A stretch of 24,000 nt of DNA from Candidatus Nanoarchaeia archaeon (GTDB taxonomy: Archaea > Nanobdellota > Nanobdellia > Pacearchaeales > GW2011-AR1), in the NCBI GenBank assembly GCA_028711165.1, contig JAQTST010000001.1:454558-478557 (forward strand). The letters run 5' to 3'. Below the pieces are notes generated by a model that ran no database searches, was not told the DNA's origin, and saw nothing but the letters and a program-made list of their open reading frames with translations. This document shows positions 1,106 through 24,000 of the stretch, piece after piece (the first letter of the stretch is position 1; each line of letters begins with the position of its first letter). The position numbers and the translations under genes were made by a program.

Positions 1106-1702
1106 TTATTTAACCGCGACGAATTTGTCTCTGCCAATACTTTTTGCGTTGTATAATGCTTTATCGACTCTCTCCTTGAATTTCTTTTTGCTATCTTCTT
1201 TTGTCCTGAATTGAGTAACTCCGCCGCTGACAGTCAGTTTATGTTTTTTTAAAGTTTTATCTGCGTGGACTAATCTTCTTAATTTCAGAGAAAAAGATTT
1301 TGCTTTTTCCAAATCTGTTTCCGGAAGCAGGATGATAAATTCTTCTCCGCCGAACCTCGCTGCGATGTCTGATTTTCTTACATTTTTTCTTATTACGTCT
1401 GCAAGTTTTTTCAGCAGCTCGTCGGCTTTCATATGCCCGTATTTATCATTTACCTTTTTGAAAAAATCTATGTCAATTATTATCATAGAAAGTTTTTGCT
1501 GTCCTCGTTTTGCTTTCTCGATTTCCATATCAAGAAGCGTTTCGAAAAATTTGTTGTTGTACAATCCTGTTTTCTCGTCGTGGGTTGCAACTTCGTAAAG
1601 CATCGAGACAGATTCGCTCATAGATTCAAATAATTCTTCTATTTTTTTCCTGAACCTCGGGTCGAGTGCCGAAAGTTTCTTTTTAATTTTTCTATCCATC
1701 AA
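1106..1702 (-). CDS. Stand-alone GGDEF-domain diguanylate cyclase (198 aa)
   Basis: Hallmarks of the GGDEF domain family: DEKTGLYN, IDIDFFKKVNDKYGH, and the active-site motif RFGGEEFIILL. An intact I-site RKSD lies five residues upstream of GGEEF. No sensor or transmembrane domain. Confidence 0.9.
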   Translation of the reverse strand: MMDRKIKKKLSALDPRFRKKIEELFESMSESVSMLYEVATHDEKTGLYNNKFFETLLDMEIEKAKRGQQKLSMIIIDIDFFKKVNDKYGHMKADELLKKLADVIRKNVRKSDIAARFGGEEFIILLPETDLEKAKSFSLKLRRLVHADKTLKKHKLTVSGGVTQFRTKEDSKKKFKERVDKALYNAKSIGRDKFVAVK

Positions 1703-13523: not shown

Positions 13524-14303
13524 ATGAAAAGAAAAAGAGAAATTATTTTGCTGGGTATTTTGATATTGCTGATGTTTGTTATAAATTACAGCTTTGTTGA
13601 TAATGCGGTTGTTGAATTTCTTGACGATTATGAAACAACGATTGTGGAAAGAGTTATCGACGGTGACACGATTGTCGTCGGGAATGACACCCATGTGAGA
13701 CTGCTGGGAATTAACACGCCTGAAAAAGGGGAGAAATATTACAATGAAGCGAAAAATTTTTTATCGATGGTAATTCTCAACAAGACAGTTGAATTAAGGT
13801 TTGGAAAAGAGAGATATGACAGATACGGAAGAGAACTTGCTTACGTGTTTTATAATGATGCAAATGTAAATCTGGAATTAGTCGACGAGGGCTATGCGAA
13901 TTTTTATTTTCCGTCGGGAAAAGATGAATATTATGACAGGGCTGTAAAAAATTGGGAGCACTGCATTTCAAATAACAAATATCTCTGCGAAAAATCCGAC
14001 GACAAATGTGCTGACTGCGTTGAGTTGGAAGAATTTGAAAATCAGGAAGTTATCTTCGGAAATAATTGCAATTTTGAATGTGATTTAACCGGCTGGAGCA
14101 TTAAAGATGAAGGGAGGAAGAAATTTATTTTTGGGGATTTTGTTCTTGAAAAAAATAAAGAAGTGAAAATCATCGTCGGCAACAAGACAAACAGCAACGG
14201 CATTTTGTACTGGAAGAATGAAGATTATGTCTGGACAGAAACAGGAGACACTTTATTTTTGCGAGATAAAGGGGGGAAGCTGGTTTTGTGGAAGAAATAT
14301 TAG
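13524..14303 (+). CDS. Membrane-anchored extracellular thermonuclease (SNase fold) fused to a lamin-tail-like domain
   Basis: N-terminal TM anchor. SNase motifs VIDGDTIVV, VRLLGINTPE, YDRYGRELAYVF and NLELVDEGYA. The C-terminal part CDLTGWSIKDEGRKKFIFGDFVLEKNKEVKIIVG resembles the LTD domain. Confidence 0.8.
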   Translation: MKRKREIILLGILILLMFVINYSFVDNAVVEFLDDYETTIVERVIDGDTIVVGNDTHVRLLGINTPEKGEKYYNEAKNFLSMVILNKTVELRFGKERYDRYGRELAYVFYNDANVNLELVDEGYANFYFPSGKDEYYDRAVKNWEHCISNNKYLCEKSDDKCADCVELEEFENQEVIFGNNCNFECDLTGWSIKDEGRKKFIFGDFVLEKNKEVKIIVGNKTNSNGILYWKNEDYVWTETGDTLFLRDKGGKLVLWKKY

Positions 14304-14817: not shown

Positions 14818-16209
14818 ATGAGAAAAAATATTTTAGGTATTTTAGCATTCGTAATGGCTTTCGTCATGATTGGTGGAGTTAGTGCTACTATTGCAGATGG
14901 TGTTGTATTTACTTCACCCGCATTAAGTAGTTATGTTCATAGTACAATAAATGTGCAGTGGACAAATGTACATAGTTATCCAACTTTAACTTTGCAATAT
15001 GTTCAAGGAGAATGTAATGCAAGCGAAGGATGGACAAGTATTGGTTCTGAAAATATGCCTTCAACCAAATTAAGTTCCTCTTGGAATACTGCAGGATTAG
15101 ATGATGGAAACTATTGTTTGAGACTTCAAACTGCTAGCCTTCTAACTGAAGATTCTGTGGCAGTAACTGTAGATAATGAAAAACCTATTGCAAAAATTGC
15201 AGTAACTGGAAATAAAATTCAATACGAAAAATTGAACTTTTATGGAAATGGTTCTACAGATAATAATGGAATTGCAAGTTACTTATGGGAATTTGGTGAT
15301 GGAAGTACAAGTACTGAGATGAATCCAACTCACTCTTATTTAGTAGTAGATGATTATACTGTTAAACTAACAGTAACTGATTCAGCAGGAAACAAAGATT
15401 CTGCAACAAAGTCTATTACTATAGCAGATATTCCTTATGAAGAACCAAGCACAGTTTTTGAAGCTGGAATAAGAGAAATGTTAGACTTACACAGTTCAAT
15501 TGATACTGGTTTAACAGGAACAATAGAATGTAGTGTATTGCCTTCTAGTCTTCCTATAGACGGACTCGTCTTAGGTGAATCTGGAAGCAATTGTACTTTT
15601 GACTGGACAAATATTCCTTATTCTTACCGAGGATTGCATGAATTATCTATAAGGGTAAGTAGCACTGAAGCTGCTACACCAAAGTACTTCAAGGTAGACA
15701 TAACAGTTTACACTTGGATGGCTCCTCTTGTTGTAACAAATGAGAACTACGGATGGAATATGTTTTCAATTCCAATGATGCCTGCAGATACTGACAGCGA
15801 TTCTGTATTAGCTAATATAAAAGATAATATGGATAGCGATAATGTATGGCAATATGATGCAACTGCACAGAAATGGAAGAAGACAACAAAGATTGTTCCA
15901 GGATATGCATACAGAGTAAAGATGAAAGCTACTGACACTTTGAAAGGTTTCGGAAACATTGAAGGAAGTCAGGTTCCAGTTGTAAATGGCTGGAATGCTA
16001 TTGGACATTACGGAATTAATTCTGTATCAATAGATGATGCTTTGACAAGTTTAACTTTGGGAGATGTTAAGTTCTATGATAGTATTCTATCAAGCAGCTC
16101 AACATTCGATGCTTATCAAGGTTATTTCTTAACTGCTAAATTCCTGCCAGATACATCTGAACTTTACACTCCATCACAGAGTGTTATAAATTATATCTTG
16201 GCAGATTAA
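14818..16209 (+). CDS. Secreted surface protein with a PKD domain (463 aa)
   Basis: Strong AGGAGG Shine-Dalgarno motif and a signal peptide. Canonical PKD core YLWEFGDGSTSTEMNPTHSYLVVDDYTVKLTVTDSAGNKDSATKSITI. Ig-like N-terminal domain. The C-terminal GWNMFSIP...PGYAYRVK module is of a kind common in surface proteins. Confidence 0.8.
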   Translation: MRKNILGILAFVMAFVMIGGVSATIADGVVFTSPALSSYVHSTINVQWTNVHSYPTLTLQYVQGECNASEGWTSIGSENMPSTKLSSSWNTAGLDDGNYCLRLQTASLLTEDSVAVTVDNEKPIAKIAVTGNKIQYEKLNFYGNGSTDNNGIASYLWEFGDGSTSTEMNPTHSYLVVDDYTVKLTVTDSAGNKDSATKSITIADIPYEEPSTVFEAGIREMLDLHSSIDTGLTGTIECSVLPSSLPIDGLVLGESGSNCTFDWTNIPYSYRGLHELSIRVSSTEAATPKYFKVDITVYTWMAPLVVTNENYGWNMFSIPMMPADTDSDSVLANIKDNMDSDNVWQYDATAQKWKKTTKIVPGYAYRVKMKATDTLKGFGNIEGSQVPVVNGWNAIGHYGINSVSIDDALTSLTLGDVKFYDSILSSSSTFDAYQGYFLTAKFLPDTSELYTPSQSVINYILAD

Positions 16210-20666: not shown

Positions 20667-21257
20667 ATGAAAAAAAGGGTAGATAAGCATGGACAATTTT
20701 TTCTCATCGCTGCTGTTATTATAATTGCAGTAATTGTAAGCATCGTAACGATAACGAATTATACGCAAAAAAGAGATGTTGTAAGACTTTATGATTTGGG
20801 AGAAGAATTAGGAATTGAAAGCCAACAGGTTTTGGATTACGGAACATACAGCGAATTAAACGAAGAAGAAATGAAAGGTTTGATAGAAAATTTTATTAAT
20901 AATTATGTAAGCTATATCGAGGACGACAAGAATATTTATTTTGTATTCGGAAATAAAGACAAGGTTAATGTTGTAGGATATCAGGATATTCAAAAAGAAG
21001 AAGTTCTTGTCTGCCTTAAGATTGCAGGTGCAGTAGAAGATATTAAGATTACCGGAGAGGACGATTGTGACCCTTATCTTACTATCGGAGAAACACAGCA
21101 GTTCACAGAAAAAAATCTCCAGGAGATAGATAAAGTAGAAGTTAAAATTGGGGGAATAGGATATGAGTTCCCATTAAATTATGGAGAAAATTTCTATTTT
21201 GTAATCTGGCAGGAAATCGGCGGGGAGAAACATGTTGTCACAAGCTCTTCGGGATAA
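20667..21257 (+). CDS. Pilin-like protein 1 (class III signal-peptide-like N-terminus)
   Basis: MKKRVDKHGQ followed by FFLIAAVIIIAVIVSIVTI, i.e. a basic stretch, then Gly, then about 20 hydrophobic residues. First gene of a same-strand cluster with overlapping junctions. Confidence 0.6.
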   Translation: MKKRVDKHGQFFLIAAVIIIAVIVSIVTITNYTQKRDVVRLYDLGEELGIESQQVLDYGTYSELNEEEMKGLIENFINNYVSYIEDDKNIYFVFGNKDKVNVVGYQDIQKEEVLVCLKIAGAVEDIKITGEDDCDPYLTIGETQQFTEKNLQEIDKVEVKIGGIGYEFPLNYGENFYFVIWQEIGGEKHVVTSSSG

Positions 21258-21798
21258 GCGAGGACTTAGTTTAGTCATAGGATATATTTTGCTGATAGCT
21301 ATTTCAGTAGTTATGAGTGTTATCGTCTACCAATGGCTGAGAACTTATGTTCCGACGGAATCTGTCGAATGCGACGAAGGAGTTTCTATTTTTATCAACG
21401 ACGTTTCTTACGATTGCACTGCAGGAAATCTTGAAGTGACGACGAGAAATAATGGAAAGTTCAGCGTGAATGGATATTTCATCCGTGCTTCAAATAACAG
21501 CGAGGGATTAGCGACGATTGATCTTTCTCTAAATATTCTCGGAGGATACGGCGGGAGTATTTATGGAAATACAAATTCAATCTCCTTTTCAAATGAAACC
21601 TGTGTTTCAGACTGCGAGAATTCTCTTACTCCGACGGTTTCAAGCAATGTTAAAAGTTTGACATTTAATGTTTCGAGCTACGGAGGAAATCTTGTCAAAA
21701 TTGAGATAATTCCGACGAGGATTCAGGAAATTGACAATAAAAAAAGGCTCGTGAGCTGCGGCGGTGCAAAGATTGAAGAAACACTGGTGTGCGAATAA
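21232..21798 (+). CDS. Archaeal type IV pilin-like protein 2
   Basis: RDKRGLSLVIGYILLIAISVVMSVIVYQWL matches the archaeal pilin/archaellin N-terminal pattern (K/R-G-[LV]-S then hydrophobic). It overlaps the upstream gene by 26 nt. Confidence 0.7.
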   Translation: MLSQALRDKRGLSLVIGYILLIAISVVMSVIVYQWLRTYVPTESVECDEGVSIFINDVSYDCTAGNLEVTTRNNGKFSVNGYFIRASNNSEGLATIDLSLNILGGYGGSIYGNTNSISFSNETCVSDCENSLTPTVSSNVKSLTFNVSSYGGNLVKIEIIPTRIQEIDNKKRLVSCGGAKIEETLVCE

Positions 21799-21831: not shown

Positions 21832-22314
21832 ATGGTAAAGAAATTCAGGATAAAAAATAAGAGGGGGCTTTCTCCGGTAATTACAACGGTGTTATTAATT
21901 GCACTTGTAGTTGTAAGCACGTCGATAGTTTTTTTATGGTTCCGTGGAATGGTTGAAGAAGGAGTTACAAAATTCGGGAAAAATATAAAGCTCGTCTGCG
22001 ACGATGTTGATTTCAAAGCAGAATATAATGCAGGAACATTAAGCGTCGTAAATAATGGAAACATTCCGATATATAATTTGAATTTAAGAATATCCAGCGG
22101 AGGAAATTTCGAGACAAGAGAGATATCAGAAATTTCCGGAGTAGATTGGCCTGAAACAGGATTGGCACAGGGAGGTTCTTTTGCGGGAAATATTGCGGGA
22201 GAAGTTGGAAGTGCAAGTGAGATGATAGTATCCCCAATCTTAGTGGGAACATCAAGCAGCGGTCAAAAAACTTATATATGCGGGGGGCAATATGGTAAAG
22301 AGCTTCCTGTATAA
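21832..22314 (+). CDS. Archaeal type IV pilin-like protein 3
   Basis: NKRGLSPVITTVLLIALVVVSTSIVFLWF is a textbook archaeal pilin N-terminal domain. It is followed by a beta-rich globular part. Confidence 0.8.
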   Translation: MVKKFRIKNKRGLSPVITTVLLIALVVVSTSIVFLWFRGMVEEGVTKFGKNIKLVCDDVDFKAEYNAGTLSVVNNGNIPIYNLNLRISSGGNFETREISEISGVDWPETGLAQGGSFAGNIAGEVGSASEMIVSPILVGTSSSGQKTYICGGQYGKELPV

Positions 22315-23608
22315 AAATAAAAAGGGTTTATCGACGATTATTATAACTTTGATTTTAATTCTTGTCTCGTTAGTTGCAATTGGAATTTTTTGGGTTGTTA
22401 TAAACAATTTAATAAAAAGCGGGACAGAAGGTATTGGTCTGGGGAGATTGACACTTAATGCAGAAATTAAAAGTGTCAGCATCGATAACTCATCAAATAA
22501 TGTTACTTTAACTGTAGAAAGAAAAGTTGGAGCAGGAGAGATGACAGGAATCAAATTTATTTTTTACAGCGATACTGATACAGAAATAATTACTGAAGAT
22601 ATTGAACTCGAACAATTAAAAGAAGCACAGTTTACTTTTCATTTGTTAATGAACGTCGGTGATATAACAAAGATTTCAATTGCACCAATTTTCAGTTCCA
22701 GCGAGGGTGAAGAAAGTGTTGGAAATGTTCTTGATACTTATAATGTTGAAGAACAACCTCCTGTTCCACCGTGTGTGCCTGCTATTAATCCTTGCGGAAC
22801 AAGAGTTTGCGGAAGTGTTACAAACGGAACTTGCGGAAGCATCAGCTGCGGAACCTGTACAGGAGGACAGGAATGTAATTCAACAGGGCAATGTTCTACT
22901 CCTTGTGTCCCATCATCATGCGGTTTATTAGGTTATGAATGCGGAGGACCTTACAACAACGGAACTTGTTTTGGAACATTTAGTTGCGGAGGTTGTATGG
23001 GGGAAGATGTATGTATTGCAGGACATTGTCAACTGAATATAACTCCAATCTTGTGGTATAAGTTCGACGGTAATTTATTAGATTCGGGAGTCGCGCCGGC
23101 AATGGATGGTGCCTGGACAAATGGAACAGGAACTTTTGTAACTGGTTTCAGCGGACAAGCAGCAGATTTTGCAGGGGTTAATGGAATAACAGGAAATGTA
23201 GGTTCTAAAATTGGAAATTTATCTCAAATGACAATTTCAGTTTATGCAAAGAAAAATGTGGCTAGTCAGGGAGGAGATTTATTCTACAAACATGTTCAGT
23301 ATAGAATTATAATCTCCCAGAATTATGTAACTGGTCAAATTTATATCGGAGGAAATGTCACAGAGGTTGCTGGAATAGCAAATATAGATAATACTAACTG
23401 GCATCAATATACCTTGAATTATAACGGTACAGCATTAAAAATTTATGTTGATGGAACTGAGATTGATTCAGAAATTGCAACGGGGAATGTTGATGATTCT
23501 CAATGGCAGGAGCTTTTAATTGGAAATCAGCCGATTGCATGGAGCGGAACATATTTCAACGGGCAGGTTGATGAGTTTAAAATTTATAACAGATCCATAA
23601 CGTCATAA
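22292..23608 (+). CDS. Pilin-like N-terminus fused to two Cys-rich repeats and a C-terminal LamG/concanavalin-like lectin domain (438 aa); putative pilus adhesin
   Basis: NKKGLSTIIITLILILVSLVAIGIFWVV is the pilin-type N-terminus. Two Cys-rich repeats of about 45 aa each (PCVPAINPCGTRVCG...GQC and PCVPSSCGLLGYECGG...GHCQ). LamG_3-like pattern: LWYKFDGNLLDSG...MTISVYAK...WHQYTLNYNGTALKIYVDG...FNGQVDEFKIYNRS. It overlaps the upstream gene by 23 nt. Confidence 0.8.
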   Translation: MVKSFLYKNKKGLSTIIITLILILVSLVAIGIFWVVINNLIKSGTEGIGLGRLTLNAEIKSVSIDNSSNNVTLTVERKVGAGEMTGIKFIFYSDTDTEIITEDIELEQLKEAQFTFHLLMNVGDITKISIAPIFSSSEGEESVGNVLDTYNVEEQPPVPPCVPAINPCGTRVCGSVTNGTCGSISCGTCTGGQECNSTGQCSTPCVPSSCGLLGYECGGPYNNGTCFGTFSCGGCMGEDVCIAGHCQLNITPILWYKFDGNLLDSGVAPAMDGAWTNGTGTFVTGFSGQAADFAGVNGITGNVGSKIGNLSQMTISVYAKKNVASQGGDLFYKHVQYRIIISQNYVTGQIYIGGNVTEVAGIANIDNTNWHQYTLNYNGTALKIYVDGTEIDSEIATGNVDDSQWQELLIGNQPIAWSGTYFNGQVDEFKIYNRSITS

Positions 23609-23654
23609 AAAATTATAAGATAAAATATAAAAACTCATTCTTATTATTTTAATA

Positions 23655-24000
23655 ATGAGTAATAAAAGAGGTTTATCGACGATTATCATAACGATGATTT
23701 TGATTCTTATTTCATTAGTCGCAATTGGAGTTTTCTGGGTTGTTGTAAATAATTTAATCAAAGGAGGAACAGAAGATATTAATTTGGGAAGATTAACTTT
23801 TAGTGCAGAGATTAATAGAGTTCTCGTCGATAATTCGTCAAATAATATGAGTATTTTAGTCAAGAGAAATTCTGGGGAAGGAAATGTTACCAAGATGAAA
23901 TTTATTTTTTACAGTGAAAATGATAATGAAATCATCACACAAGATATCAATCTTGAACAGTTCGCGCAAAAGAATTTTGTTTTCCATCTAGAAACAAACG
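23655..24000 (+). CDS. Partial CDS running off the right edge: pilin-like protein 5, a paralog of the N-terminal ~115 aa of the 22292 gene
   Basis: My translation from ATG 23655 is MSNKRGLSTIIITMILILISLVAIGVFWVVVNNLIKGGTEDINLGRLTFSAEINRVLVDNSSNNMSILVKRNSGEGNVTKMKFIFYSENDNEIITQDINLEQFAQKNFVFHLETN, open to the window end. It is missing from the ORF track because it is open-ended. Confidence 0.75.
   Translation, partial: MSNKRGLSTIIITMILILISLVAIGVFWVVVNNLIKGGTEDINLGRLTFSAEINRVLVDNSSNNMSILVKRNSGEGNVTKMKFIFYSENDNEIITQDINLEQFAQKNFVFHLETN

What the first reader, a model, noticed from the sequence alone, without database searches (positions are those of the whole stretch)
22292..23608. Pilin N-domain fused to Cys-rich repeats and a LamG lectin domain, a possible tip adhesin
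A single 438-aa ORF carries four parts in order. First is a pilin-type N-terminus. Second is a beta-rich module of about 100 aa. Third are two tandem Cys-rich repeats with the same spacing (PC..x..CG...CG....NGTCG..SCG.C.G...C..G.C). Fourth is a C-terminal domain with the LamG/ConA-like jelly-roll signature (YKFDGN...DxSG, W..Y...YNG..LKIYVDG, F.G.VDEFKIYNR). Pilin subunits that carry a lectin-type domain would put a carbohydrate or protein binding head on a filament. I know of no characterised archaeal example.
Basis: partly seen in the sequence, partly recalled or inferred. Interest (0 to 1): 0.7.

Follow-up and report, generated by a model that had tools for sequence, protein, structure and literature searches.

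The report
Archaeal pilus subunit carrying a lectin-like head
This gene from a tiny DPANN archaeon encodes a pilus building block extended by a cysteine-rich stalk and a lectin-fold (LamG) head; the design is already known from bacterial pili, but here it belongs to a large, undescribed archaeal family whose heads are swapped on one conserved anchor.

Summary
ORF 22292..23608 (+, 438 aa) is real and has four parts:
- a class-III-type signal peptide followed by a hydrophobic helix;
- a roughly 100-aa beta-sandwich;
- two 45-aa repeats with 8 Cys each;
- a C-terminal Laminin_G_3 domain (Pfam E=2.6e-16), whose model matches lectin-like jelly rolls.

It is not a fusion artefact. The identical protein is deposited from three MAGs of Candidatus Nanoarchaeia, and at least 29 relatives have the same architecture.

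The gene sits inside a type IV pilus operon with about nine pilin-like genes, a FlaI-like ATPase and a split FlaJ-like platform. The next gene is a "bare" 146-aa pilin, 65% identical to the target's N-terminal module.

The N-module defines a family of at least 2,452 clusters at 50% identity. Their C-terminal heads vary, and LamG is the commonest recognisable one (20 of 95).

Best reading: a modular type IV pilin that co-assembles with the bare pilin and displays a binding head. Tip location and glycan binding are inferred, not shown.

Closest known:
- bacterial modular pilins (S. sanguinis PilC);
- haloarchaeal TafC, a fimbrial subunit with a LamG domain;
- bindosome proteins.

Verdict: a new variant of a known kind, of moderate interest.

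The parts
22292..22327 (+). Leader peptide, residues 1-12 (MVKSFLYKNKKG). The predicted prepilin-peptidase cut is after Gly12.
   Evidence: The KGLSTI motif is present. G12, L13, S14 and T15 are invariant in a 12-sequence family alignment. Cleavage itself is inferred.
22328..22426 (+). Hydrophobic N-terminal alpha-helix, residues 13-45; the predicted filament-core or membrane segment.
   Evidence: AlphaFold2 predicts a helix at 14-45 with pLDDT 73-93. The Kyte-Doolittle 20-aa maximum is 3.06. This stretch is nearly identical to the helix of the adjacent bare pilin.
22457..22744 (+). Beta-sandwich globular part of the pilin module, residues 56-151.
   Evidence: AlphaFold2 predicts strands at 56-151 with pLDDT about 90-97. 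Foldseek finds only generic Ig/FN3-like matches at E~1e-3. The module is conserved in 2,452 clusters at 50% identity.
22766..22900 (+). Cys-rich repeat 1, residues 159-203: 8 Cys, subtype with spacing 6,4,7,4,2,5,5.
   Evidence: Supported. The repeat HMM scores E=8.8e-24. pLDDT is 73-84.
22901..23035 (+). Cys-rich repeat 2, residues 204-248: 8 Cys, subtype with spacing 4,6,8,5,2,5,4.
   Evidence: Supported. The repeat HMM scores E=1.1e-26. It has no Pfam or PDB sequence relative.
23036..23608 (+). LamG / ConA-like jelly-roll head, residues 249-438, plus the stop codon.
   Evidence: Pfam Laminin_G_3 E=2.6e-16. AlphaFold2 pLDDT 80.4 and pTM 0.80. Foldseek TMq is up to 0.77 against lectin-like jelly rolls.
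20667..21257 (+). Upstream pilin-like gene, 196 aa: basic N-terminus, then Gly, then a hydrophobic segment.
   Evidence: Supported. It has no family hit.
21232..21798 (+). Upstream pilin-like gene, 188 aa, with the RGLSLV motif.
   Evidence: The motif is found. There is a weak UpsA hit at 0.0022. Its N-module is shared with P0038 (Pacearchaeota), which also carries a Cys repeat.
21832..22314 (+). Upstream pilin gene, 160 aa; it overlaps the target's start by 23 nt.
   Evidence: TIGR02537 arch_flag_Nterm scores 33.5 bits against a cut-off of 20, and UpsA scores 1.4e-7. Pilin_N scores 0.0013.
23655..24000 (+). Start of the 'bare' 146-aa pilin paralog. It runs off the window; the full gene is L001 11364-11804.
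   Evidence: It is 65% identical to target residues 9-152 with no gaps, E=2e-54, and it ends where the target's linker begins.

Best explanation
The gene encodes a modular archaeal type IV pilin.

Inferred steps:
- The 12-residue leader is removed by a prepilin (class III) peptidase.
- The hydrophobic helix (residues 13-45) first anchors the protein in the membrane.
- The helix then packs into the core of a pilus polymerised by the FlaI-like ATPase and split FlaJ-like platform encoded 1.6 kb downstream.
- The protein co-assembles with the neighbouring bare 146-aa pilin, whose helix and beta-sandwich it shares.

Shown from sequence and models:
- The C-terminus of the pilin module continues into two 8-Cys repeats and then a LamG jelly-roll domain. 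The repeats most likely form a rigid disulfide-bonded, possibly N-glycosylated stalk.

Inferred function:
- The LamG head projects from the filament, at its tip or sparsely along it, and binds a glycan or protein ligand. For an ultra-small DPANN archaeon this ligand is most plausibly on a host cell surface or a particle.
- Paralogs with the same anchor but different heads would give one pilus machine a repertoire of specificities.
For: Architecture and folds are established.

The operon context comes from L001, which is GCA_028714745.1. It has three pilin-like genes upstream, then the target, then three more small pilin-like genes. These are followed by a T2SSE ATPase (FlaI model 382 bits), two T2SSF genes matching the N- and C-terminal halves of ArlJ/FlaJ, and two further genes with pilin-like N-termini.

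The target's N-module is 65% identical to the adjacent bare pilin over 144 ungapped residues.

Pilin homology holds at family level. TIGR02537 is hit by 6 of 18 N-modules, and the family profile's best PDB hit is an archaeal pilus subunit.

The N-module is always N-terminal in 150 listed representatives, whose lengths range from 94 to 2,538 aa.
- 29 of the 166 family proteins in hand carry LamG.
- Laminin_G_3 is the top Pfam head, in 20 of 95.
- 61 of the family proteins in hand (P0001-P0169) carry 1-4 Cys repeats.
- 15 of the 166 are bare, at 200 aa or less.

Anchors are conserved while heads diverge. N-modules of the paralogs are 84% and 64% identical to the target, whereas their LamG domains are only 21-26% identical.

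The target has 11 N-x-S/T sequons, against 5.2 +/- 2.0 in shuffles, which fits an exported archaeal glycoprotein.

Precedents exist:
- PilC of S. sanguinis, a modular pilin with a proven ConA-like lectin (PMC9934059).
- PF13385 among the most frequent bacterial modular-pilin modules (PMC8179133).
- TafC of Haloarcula fimbriae (PMC11821415).
Against: - The target itself does not reach Pilin_N or TIGR02537 at E<=1.
- Structural matches of the beta-sandwich are generic, at E~1e-3.
- No prepilin peptidase gene lies in the roughly 31 kb examined. The rest of the genome was not searched.
- Most paralogs are encoded away from any pilus locus.
- There is no evidence on filament incorporation, position or ligand.
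- The LamG sequence departs from the consensus N-terminal motif (WYKFDGNLLDSG rather than YYPFNGNANDESG) and lacks the usual C-terminal SEIxALYN tail.
- LamG folds also occur in non-lectin roles.
Confidence: 0.62

Rival explanations
1. The protein is a pilin-anchored surface protein rather than a filament subunit. The class III N-terminus would serve only for export and for anchoring in the membrane or in a very short pseudopilus at the cell surface, as proposed for Sulfolobus bindosome binding proteins. The LamG head would then sit at the cell envelope, not on a long pilus.
For: [quoted passage not shown] Most paralogs of this family are likewise stand-alone. Two family N-modules give weak BasA hits, at 0.0024. 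The ATPase also scores 215 bits on the BasE model.
Against: The target is inside the pilus operon and shares 65% identity, over the whole pilin module, with a bare 146-aa pilin next door. Such conservation of the beta-sandwich is unnecessary for a mere anchor. No substrate-binding-protein domain or ABC transporter is nearby. The BasE and BasA scores are far below their cut-offs.
Confidence: 0.22
2. The protein is a filament-borne head with a non-adhesive role. The LamG domain would act as a catalytic or accessory module (the ConA-like 'glucanase' side of the superfamily) or as a protein-protein scaffold. The family would then be a pilus-borne display of enzymes for scavenging, rather than of adhesins.
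For: Other heads on the same anchor look enzymatic. They include beta-helix/pectate-lyase-like, phytase-like esterase, GH130, arylesterase and a 'predicted esterase'. The LamG model also matches the accessory domain of a GH43 arabinanase.
Against: No glycoside hydrolase family HMM hits the target. Its best hits are the binding-type Laminin_G_3 family and receptor-binding subdomains of neurotoxins. No catalytic motif was identified.
Confidence: 0.12
3. The ORF is an assembly or frameshift fusion of a pilin gene and a separate LamG gene.
For: A bare pilin of the same family exists as a separate gene immediately downstream.
Against: The identical 438-aa protein is deposited from three MAGs (MDD5012555.1, MDD5357696.1, MDD5588615.1). 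The same pilin-Cys-LamG order recurs in paralogs P0002 and P0017 and in other metagenomes (P0027, P0041, and others). The ORF is continuous, with a Pro-rich linker between the modules.
Confidence: 0.01

Closest known systems
Bacterial modular type IV pilins, especially PilC of Streptococcus sanguinis (PMC9934059; survey in PMC8179133)
   Same: Both have a class III signal peptide and a pilin module, followed by an intervening module and then a ConA-like/LamG head encoded in the pilus operon. PF13385 is one of the most frequent modules on bacterial pilins, including those of CPR bacteria. [quoted passage not shown]
   Different: - The anchor is an archaeal-type pilin: it has no IPR012902 N-methylation motif and no Glu5, and it has a beta-sandwich globular domain.
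- The anchor is a full copy of a bare pilin, not a shortened pilin moiety.
- The spacer is a pair of undescribed 8-Cys repeats rather than an Ig-like module.
- No binding data exist.
TafC of Haloarcula hispanica Tat-fimbriae (PMC11821415)
   Same: Both are archaeal filament subunits whose N-terminal part resembles the major subunit and whose C-terminal part is a laminin-G-like domain. TafC was found in purified fimbriae at about 1 per 100 major subunits and is modelled at the tip.
   Different: TafC belongs to a different filament class: it is exported by the Tat pathway and is predicted to assemble by donor-strand exchange. The target has no twin-arginine motif. The NCBIfam TafC model scores only 12.3 bits against a cut-off of 410, and that match lies within the LamG region.
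Archaeal class III signal peptide proteins with binding domains (Sulfolobus bindosome binding proteins; the SPIII galactose-binding-domain protein in the M. maripaludis Epd locus), preprint 10.64898/2026.04.22.720090
   Same: Both have an archaeal prepilin-type N-terminus fused to a ligand-binding domain, and both depend on a TFF ATPase and platform. The split platform and pilin-rich locus resemble 'system 1', or the 4A variants described in DPANN.
   Different: - The head is a LamG domain, not an ABC-type substrate-binding protein.
- The anchor includes a complete conserved pilin beta-sandwich.
- A Cys-rich stalk is present.
- The family is very large, with many different heads.
PilY1/PilC-type tip adhesins of diderm T4aP and DUF2341 proteins in methanogen loci (Makarova et al. 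2016, PMC4858521)
   Same: Both are putative adhesive components encoded in type IV pilus loci.
   Different: Those are large non-pilin proteins held by minor pilins. In the target, the adhesive domain is covalently part of a pilin.

Membership tests
Archaeal type IV pilins / TFF subunits | Class III signal peptide: a short basic leader ending in Gly/Ala, followed by about 20 hydrophobic residues | tested here: met
   The sequence is MVKSFLYKNKKG|LSTIIITLILILVSLVAIGIFWVV. It matches the FlaFind-type pattern (recalled from memory), and the KD20 maximum is 3.06. G12, L13, S14 and T15 are invariant in the family alignment.
Archaeal type IV pilins / TFF subunits | A long N-terminal alpha-helix followed by a beta-rich globular domain | tested here: met
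   AlphaFold2 predicts a helix at 14-45 and a beta-sandwich at 56-151 with pLDDT above 90.
Archaeal type IV pilins / TFF subunits | Match to curated pilin N-terminal models (Pfam Pilin_N PF07790, TIGR02537) | tested here: inconclusive
   The target has no hit at E<=1. Of 18 family N-modules, 6 hit TIGR02537, best 5e-7. The family profile against the PDB gives 8fk7 archaeal pilus subunit at E=0.007 and 8fjs 'Pilin_N domain-containing protein' at E=3.3.
Archaeal type IV pilins / TFF subunits | Encoded with a TFF assembly ATPase and platform protein | tested here: met
   T2SSE scores E=2.2e-31 and the FlaI model 382 bits. Two T2SSF genes match the two halves of ArlJ. All lie 1.6-5.5 kb downstream on the same strand.
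Archaeal type IV pilins / TFF subunits | Leader cleaved by a prepilin peptidase, and subunit found in the filament | not testable with these tools
   This needs biochemistry or structural work. No peptidase gene lies in the roughly 31 kb examined, and the rest of the genome was not searched.
Bacterial modular pilins (sensu Raynaud et al. 2021) | [quoted passage not shown] | tested here: met
   The pilin module covers residues 1-151 and PF13385 covers residues 310-437.
Bacterial modular pilins (sensu Raynaud et al. 2021) | The IPR012902 prepilin N-methylation motif (G|F/M-T-L-x-E) | tested here: not met
   The mature N-terminus would be LSTIII, with no Phe1 and no Glu5 (sequence). The protein therefore works like a modular pilin but is not a member of the bacterial family.
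LamG / ConA-like lectin-glucanase superfamily (Laminin_G_3, PF13385) | HMM score above the gathering threshold | tested here: met
   The score is 60.5 bits against 27.6, E=2.6e-16.
LamG / ConA-like lectin-glucanase superfamily (Laminin_G_3, PF13385) | Two-sheet jelly-roll fold | tested here: met
   The AlphaFold2 model has pLDDT 80.4 and pTM 0.80 and contains about 14 strands. Foldseek gives 403 PDB hits at E<=1e-3, with TMq 0.6-0.77.
LamG / ConA-like lectin-glucanase superfamily (Laminin_G_3, PF13385) | Carbohydrate or protein ligand binding | not testable with these tools
This needs glycan arrays or binding assays.
TafC family (Tat-fimbriae tip subunit) | NF052521 score above its cut-off, and a twin-arginine signal | tested here: not met
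   The score is 12.3 bits against a cut-off of 410. There is no RR motif in the N-terminus.
Bindosome substrate-binding proteins | A class III signal peptide plus an ABC-type substrate-binding domain | tested here: not met
   No SBP family appears in the Pfam or NCBIfam scans, and no ABC transporter is adjacent.

The most novel reading that the evidence does not exclude
The conserved 150-aa pilin module may be the universal 'plug' of a display system widespread in DPANN archaea. One small type IV pilus machine would polymerise a bare pilin together with a genome-encoded repertoire of paralogs. These paralogs carry interchangeable heads (lectins, beta-helix and esterase-like enzymes, and many unknown folds) on a new 8-Cys, sequon-bearing stalk repeat. 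The heads would be the determinants of host recognition and attachment, and perhaps of extracellular digestion, in episymbiotic archaea. This would be a convergent counterpart of the LamG-bearing pilins of CPR bacteria.
Probability: 0.3. Interest if true: 0.7.

Novelty: new variant of a known kind. Interest (0 to 1): 0.45.

Why it matters
How DPANN archaea recognise and hold on to their hosts is largely unknown. One groundwater study even stated that type IV pilus components are missing from DPANN genomes (bioRxiv 10.1101/2020.05.14.094862).

This locus offers concrete candidates for study. It has a complete pilus operon, a candidate shaft pilin, and a paralog that adds a lectin-fold head. The family has at least 2,452 clusters at 50% identity, in which the anchor is conserved while the heads are swapped or diverge strongly.

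If the heads are adhesins, they are the obvious candidates for host-range determinants, and they can be expressed as soluble domains for binding assays. The 8-Cys repeat, which always contains N-G-S/T-C, has no Pfam or PDB sequence relative and may be a new extracellular stalk module.

The general principle, a lectin grafted on a pilin, is already established in bacteria, so the advance would be one of scope rather than of concept.

Tried and rejected
- A word-index homology search with the LamG domain alone found nothing. A 5-sequence profile then found 493 LamG proteins, mostly bacterial.
- The full-length AlphaFold2 run, using an alignment that mixed non-homologous heads, left residues 252-438 below pLDDT 50. 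This was solved by a domain-only alignment.
- A sequence search of the target against the PDB gave only noise.
- The Cys-repeat profile had no credible Pfam or PDB match. The repeat's fold could not be searched on its own.
- A locus search in GTDB genomes failed with an 18-sequence alignment. With 5 sequences it returned only three loci from one other Nanoarchaeota MAG, so taxonomic breadth rests on source names and on archaeal marker genes in neighbouring loci.
- The promoter and terminator scan was uninformative, with counts close to those in shuffles.
- Archaellum reading: rejected. There is no archaellin, FlaH or FlaF/G family hit in the locus.
- Bindosome membership and TafC membership: considered and rejected (see the membership table).
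- The minus-strand ORFs 22252..22554 and 23603..23893 are mirror images of the pilin N-termini and are not genes.
Full report

Yes. ORF 22292..23608 (+) starts with ATG and encodes 438 aa.

- N-terminus. The sequence is MVKSFLYKNKKG|LSTIIITLILILVSLVAIGIFWVV: a short basic leader ending in Gly, followed by a strongly hydrophobic stretch. AlphaFold2 predicts a helix at residues 14-45.
- Beta-sandwich. Residues 56-151 are predicted as a beta-sandwich with pLDDT mostly above 90.
- Cys repeats. Sixteen cysteines at positions 161-246 form two 45-aa repeats of 8 Cys each. The repeats are 43% identical (pairwise E=2e-9). The last five Cys are in register. The first two gaps are swapped: 6,4 in one repeat and 4,6 in the other.
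- LamG domain. Laminin_G_3 scores 60.5 bits against a gathering score of 27.6, E=2.6e-16, over residues 310-437. A domain-only AlphaFold2 model built from 44 LamG sequences reached pLDDT 80.4 and pTM 0.80. It gave 403 PDB matches at E<=1e-3. The best were the lectin-like jelly-roll subdomain of botulinum and tetanus toxin receptor-binding domains, a GH43 accessory domain and the NEL LamG-type domain, with TMq 0.6-0.77.

Both of the finder's refutation conditions fail. The jelly-roll fold is there, and the ORF is not a fusion artefact. The identical protein is deposited from three MAGs of 'Candidatus Nanoarchaeia archaeon', annotated only as 'LamG domain-containing protein'. The same module order also recurs in paralogs and in other metagenomes.

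**2. What surrounds it?**

The window is an archaeal (DPANN) chromosome segment at about 35% GC. It carries IleRS, ArgRS, TrmB and a P-type ATPase.

Three small genes with pilin-like N-termini lie directly upstream of the target, on the same strand and partly overlapping (20667-21257, 21232-21798, 21832-22314). The third hits TIGR02537 above its cut-off and hits UpsA at 1.4e-7.

The window ends 345 nt into the next gene. Fetching the source contig (L001, GCA_028714745.1) showed the rest of the locus:

- a 146-aa pilin;
- two further small pilin-like genes;
- a 515-aa T2SSE ATPase, whose best model is archaeal FlaI at 382 bits (below the equivalog cut-off);
- a 61-aa ORF;
- two T2SSF proteins that match the N- and C-terminal halves of ArlJ/FlaJ;
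- two more genes with pilin-like N-termini.

No archaellin, FlaH or FlaF/G was found, so this is a pilus-type TFF locus with a split platform. A recent survey describes this layout for 'system 1', and for some 4A loci in DPANN archaea (preprint 10.64898/2026.04.22.720090).

The 146-aa neighbour is the key observation. It is 65% identical to target residues 9-152 without a gap (E=2e-54), and it stops exactly where the target's Pro-rich linker begins. The target is therefore 'that pilin plus a stalk plus a head'.

**3. The family**

An exhaustive HMMER search with residues 1-150 found 2,452 clusters at 50% identity with E<=1e-3, and 1,006 with E<=1e-10. In all 150 listed proteins the module is at the N-terminus, and total lengths run from 94 to 2,538 aa.

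Among the family proteins in hand:

- 15 of 166 are bare, at 200 aa or less;
- 61 carry one to four copies of the Cys repeat;
- 29 of 166 carry LamG.

A Pfam scan of 95 representatives found Laminin_G_3 in 20, making it the commonest recognisable head. Beta-helix/pectate-lyase-like, discoidin, Big_7, phytase-like, GH130 and arylesterase domains each occurred in one or two. Most heads had no annotation.

The source genome has at least six members: the target, the bare pilin, P0002, a 792-aa gene next to P0002, P0003 and P0017. Apart from the target and its neighbour, the paralogs whose genomic context could be read are encoded away from any pilus locus, often in tandem or next to giant LamG-bearing surface proteins. 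P0017's context could not be judged, because only a 2.4-kb contig was retrieved for it.

Anchors are conserved while heads are not. The paralogs' N-modules are 84% and 64% identical to the target, but their LamG domains are only 21-26% identical. Neighbouring genes in these loci are archaeal: L7Ae, S28e, L24e, S6e, aIF2 and diphthamide synthase.

**4. Is the anchor a pilin?**

Evidence for:

- the class III-type motif, with invariant G12-L13-S14-T15 across the family;
- the predicted architecture of a helix followed by a beta-sandwich;
- the operon context;
- TIGR02537 hits for 6 of 18 family N-modules, best 5e-7;
- the family profile's best PDB hit, the subunit of a solved archaeal pilus, 8fk7 (E=0.007 over profile positions 1-80), with 8fjs 'Pilin_N domain-containing protein' also listed at E=3.3.

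Evidence that is weak or missing:

- the target alone does not reach Pilin_N or TIGR02537 at E<=1;
- fold matches of the sandwich are generic Ig/FN3, at E~1e-3;
- no prepilin peptidase gene lies in the 31 kb examined.

I regard pilin identity as well supported but not proven.

**5. The stalk**

I collected 77 distinct repeats. Seventy-five have exactly 8 Cys. They fall into two spacing subtypes, and the target has one of each. Every one contains N-G-S/T-C at the fourth Cys, which is an N-glycosylation sequon. The repeat profile has no credible Pfam or PDB sequence match.

The target carries 11 sequons, against 5.2 +/- 2.0 in shuffles; 9 of 2,000 shuffles reach 11. A disulfide-bonded, possibly glycosylated spacer is the natural reading. 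It is an inference.

**6. Mechanism**

Most likely (confidence about 0.6), the protein is processed like a pilin and co-polymerises with the bare pilin through the shared helix and sandwich. It would then present the LamG head on the stalk, outside the filament, as a binding module.

Tip and shaft positions cannot be told apart here. Bacterial modular pilins are proposed to be at the tip (PMC8179133, PMC9934059). TafC occurs at about 1 per 100 major subunits and is modelled at the tip (PMC11821415). However, a full-length major-pilin-like anchor is also compatible with sparse incorporation along the shaft.

The rivals are:

- a bindosome-like, envelope-level anchoring without a long filament (0.22);
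- a non-adhesive, enzyme or accessory role for the head (0.12);
- an artefactual fusion (0.01).

**7. Comparison with what is known**

The design principle is established. Bacterial modular pilins are widespread, PF13385 is among their commonest modules, and S. sanguinis PilC is a proven glycan-binding lectin pilin.

In archaea there are two relevant cases. TafC of Haloarcula Tat-fimbriae combines a major-subunit-like module with a laminin-G domain. Class III signal peptide proteins with binding domains are also documented.

The target is not a member of the bacterial prepilin family, since it lacks the IPR012902-type motif and Glu5. It is not a member of the TafC family (12.3 bits against a cut-off of 410, and no Tat motif). 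It is not a bindosome binding protein (no SBP domain).

It is a new variant: an archaeal T4-pilin anchor, an undescribed Cys repeat and a LamG head, within a very large head-swapping family that I did not find described in the searched literature.

**8. Verdict**

The novelty class is new variant of a known kind, and I score interest at 0.45. The individual protein is an expected type; the family-level pattern in DPANN archaea is what would be worth following up.

Noticed in passing
window 1106..1702 (-): A 198-aa protein with a full GGDEF diguanylate cyclase domain (Pfam PF00990, E=1.8e-41) on an archaeal DPANN contig. From my own knowledge, c-di-GMP cyclases are rare in archaea. It could be a horizontal acquisition.
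   Followed up: no
L007 10429-11316 (-) and L008, same position: A Sigma70 r2/r3/r4 protein is encoded next to a tandem pair of LamG-pilin genes (L007 8001-9164 and 9243-10403). The contig's synteny (DNA_pol_B_thumb, PhageMetallopep) matches the archaeal locus L005. This looks like a bacterial-type sigma factor in a DPANN genome.
   Followed up: partly
L005 10882-15380 (runs on); unnumbered JGI locus next to P0004: Giant surface proteins of 3,258 aa and 4,973 aa with LamG domains lie directly downstream of family members. The 3,258-aa one has a transmembrane-like N-terminus but not the pilin motif.
   Followed up: partly
window 22766..23035 and 77 repeats in family proteins: Every copy of the 8-Cys repeat contains N-G-S/T-C, an N-glycosylation sequon fixed at the fourth Cys. 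The repeat has no Pfam or PDB sequence relative.
   Followed up: partly
L001 12378-12929 and 17602-18072: Two pilin-like genes of the operon have N-termini resembling bacterial or Tad-type minor pilins. One reads KG|QVWIE, with Glu at +5, and the other RG|WIEIVE. The remaining pilin-like genes have G|LS(T/L/P) N-termini instead.
   Followed up: no
window 21232..21798 and P0038: The 188-aa upstream pilin-like protein shares its N-module with a 417-aa Pacearchaeota protein (P0038) that continues into the same Cys repeat. The stalk repeat is therefore combined with at least two different pilin anchors.
   Followed up: partly
window 13524..14303 and 14818..16209: These encode a likely secreted nuclease (SNase plus lamin-tail domain) and a PKD-domain protein, a few kb upstream of the pilus locus. 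They would fit a DNA-scavenging, surface-active lifestyle.
   Followed up: no
window 22252..22554 (-) and 23603..23893 (-): These antisense ORFs of 100 and 96 aa are mirror images of the two pilin N-terminal coding regions, and their translations resemble each other. They are shadow ORFs, not genes.
   Followed up: yes
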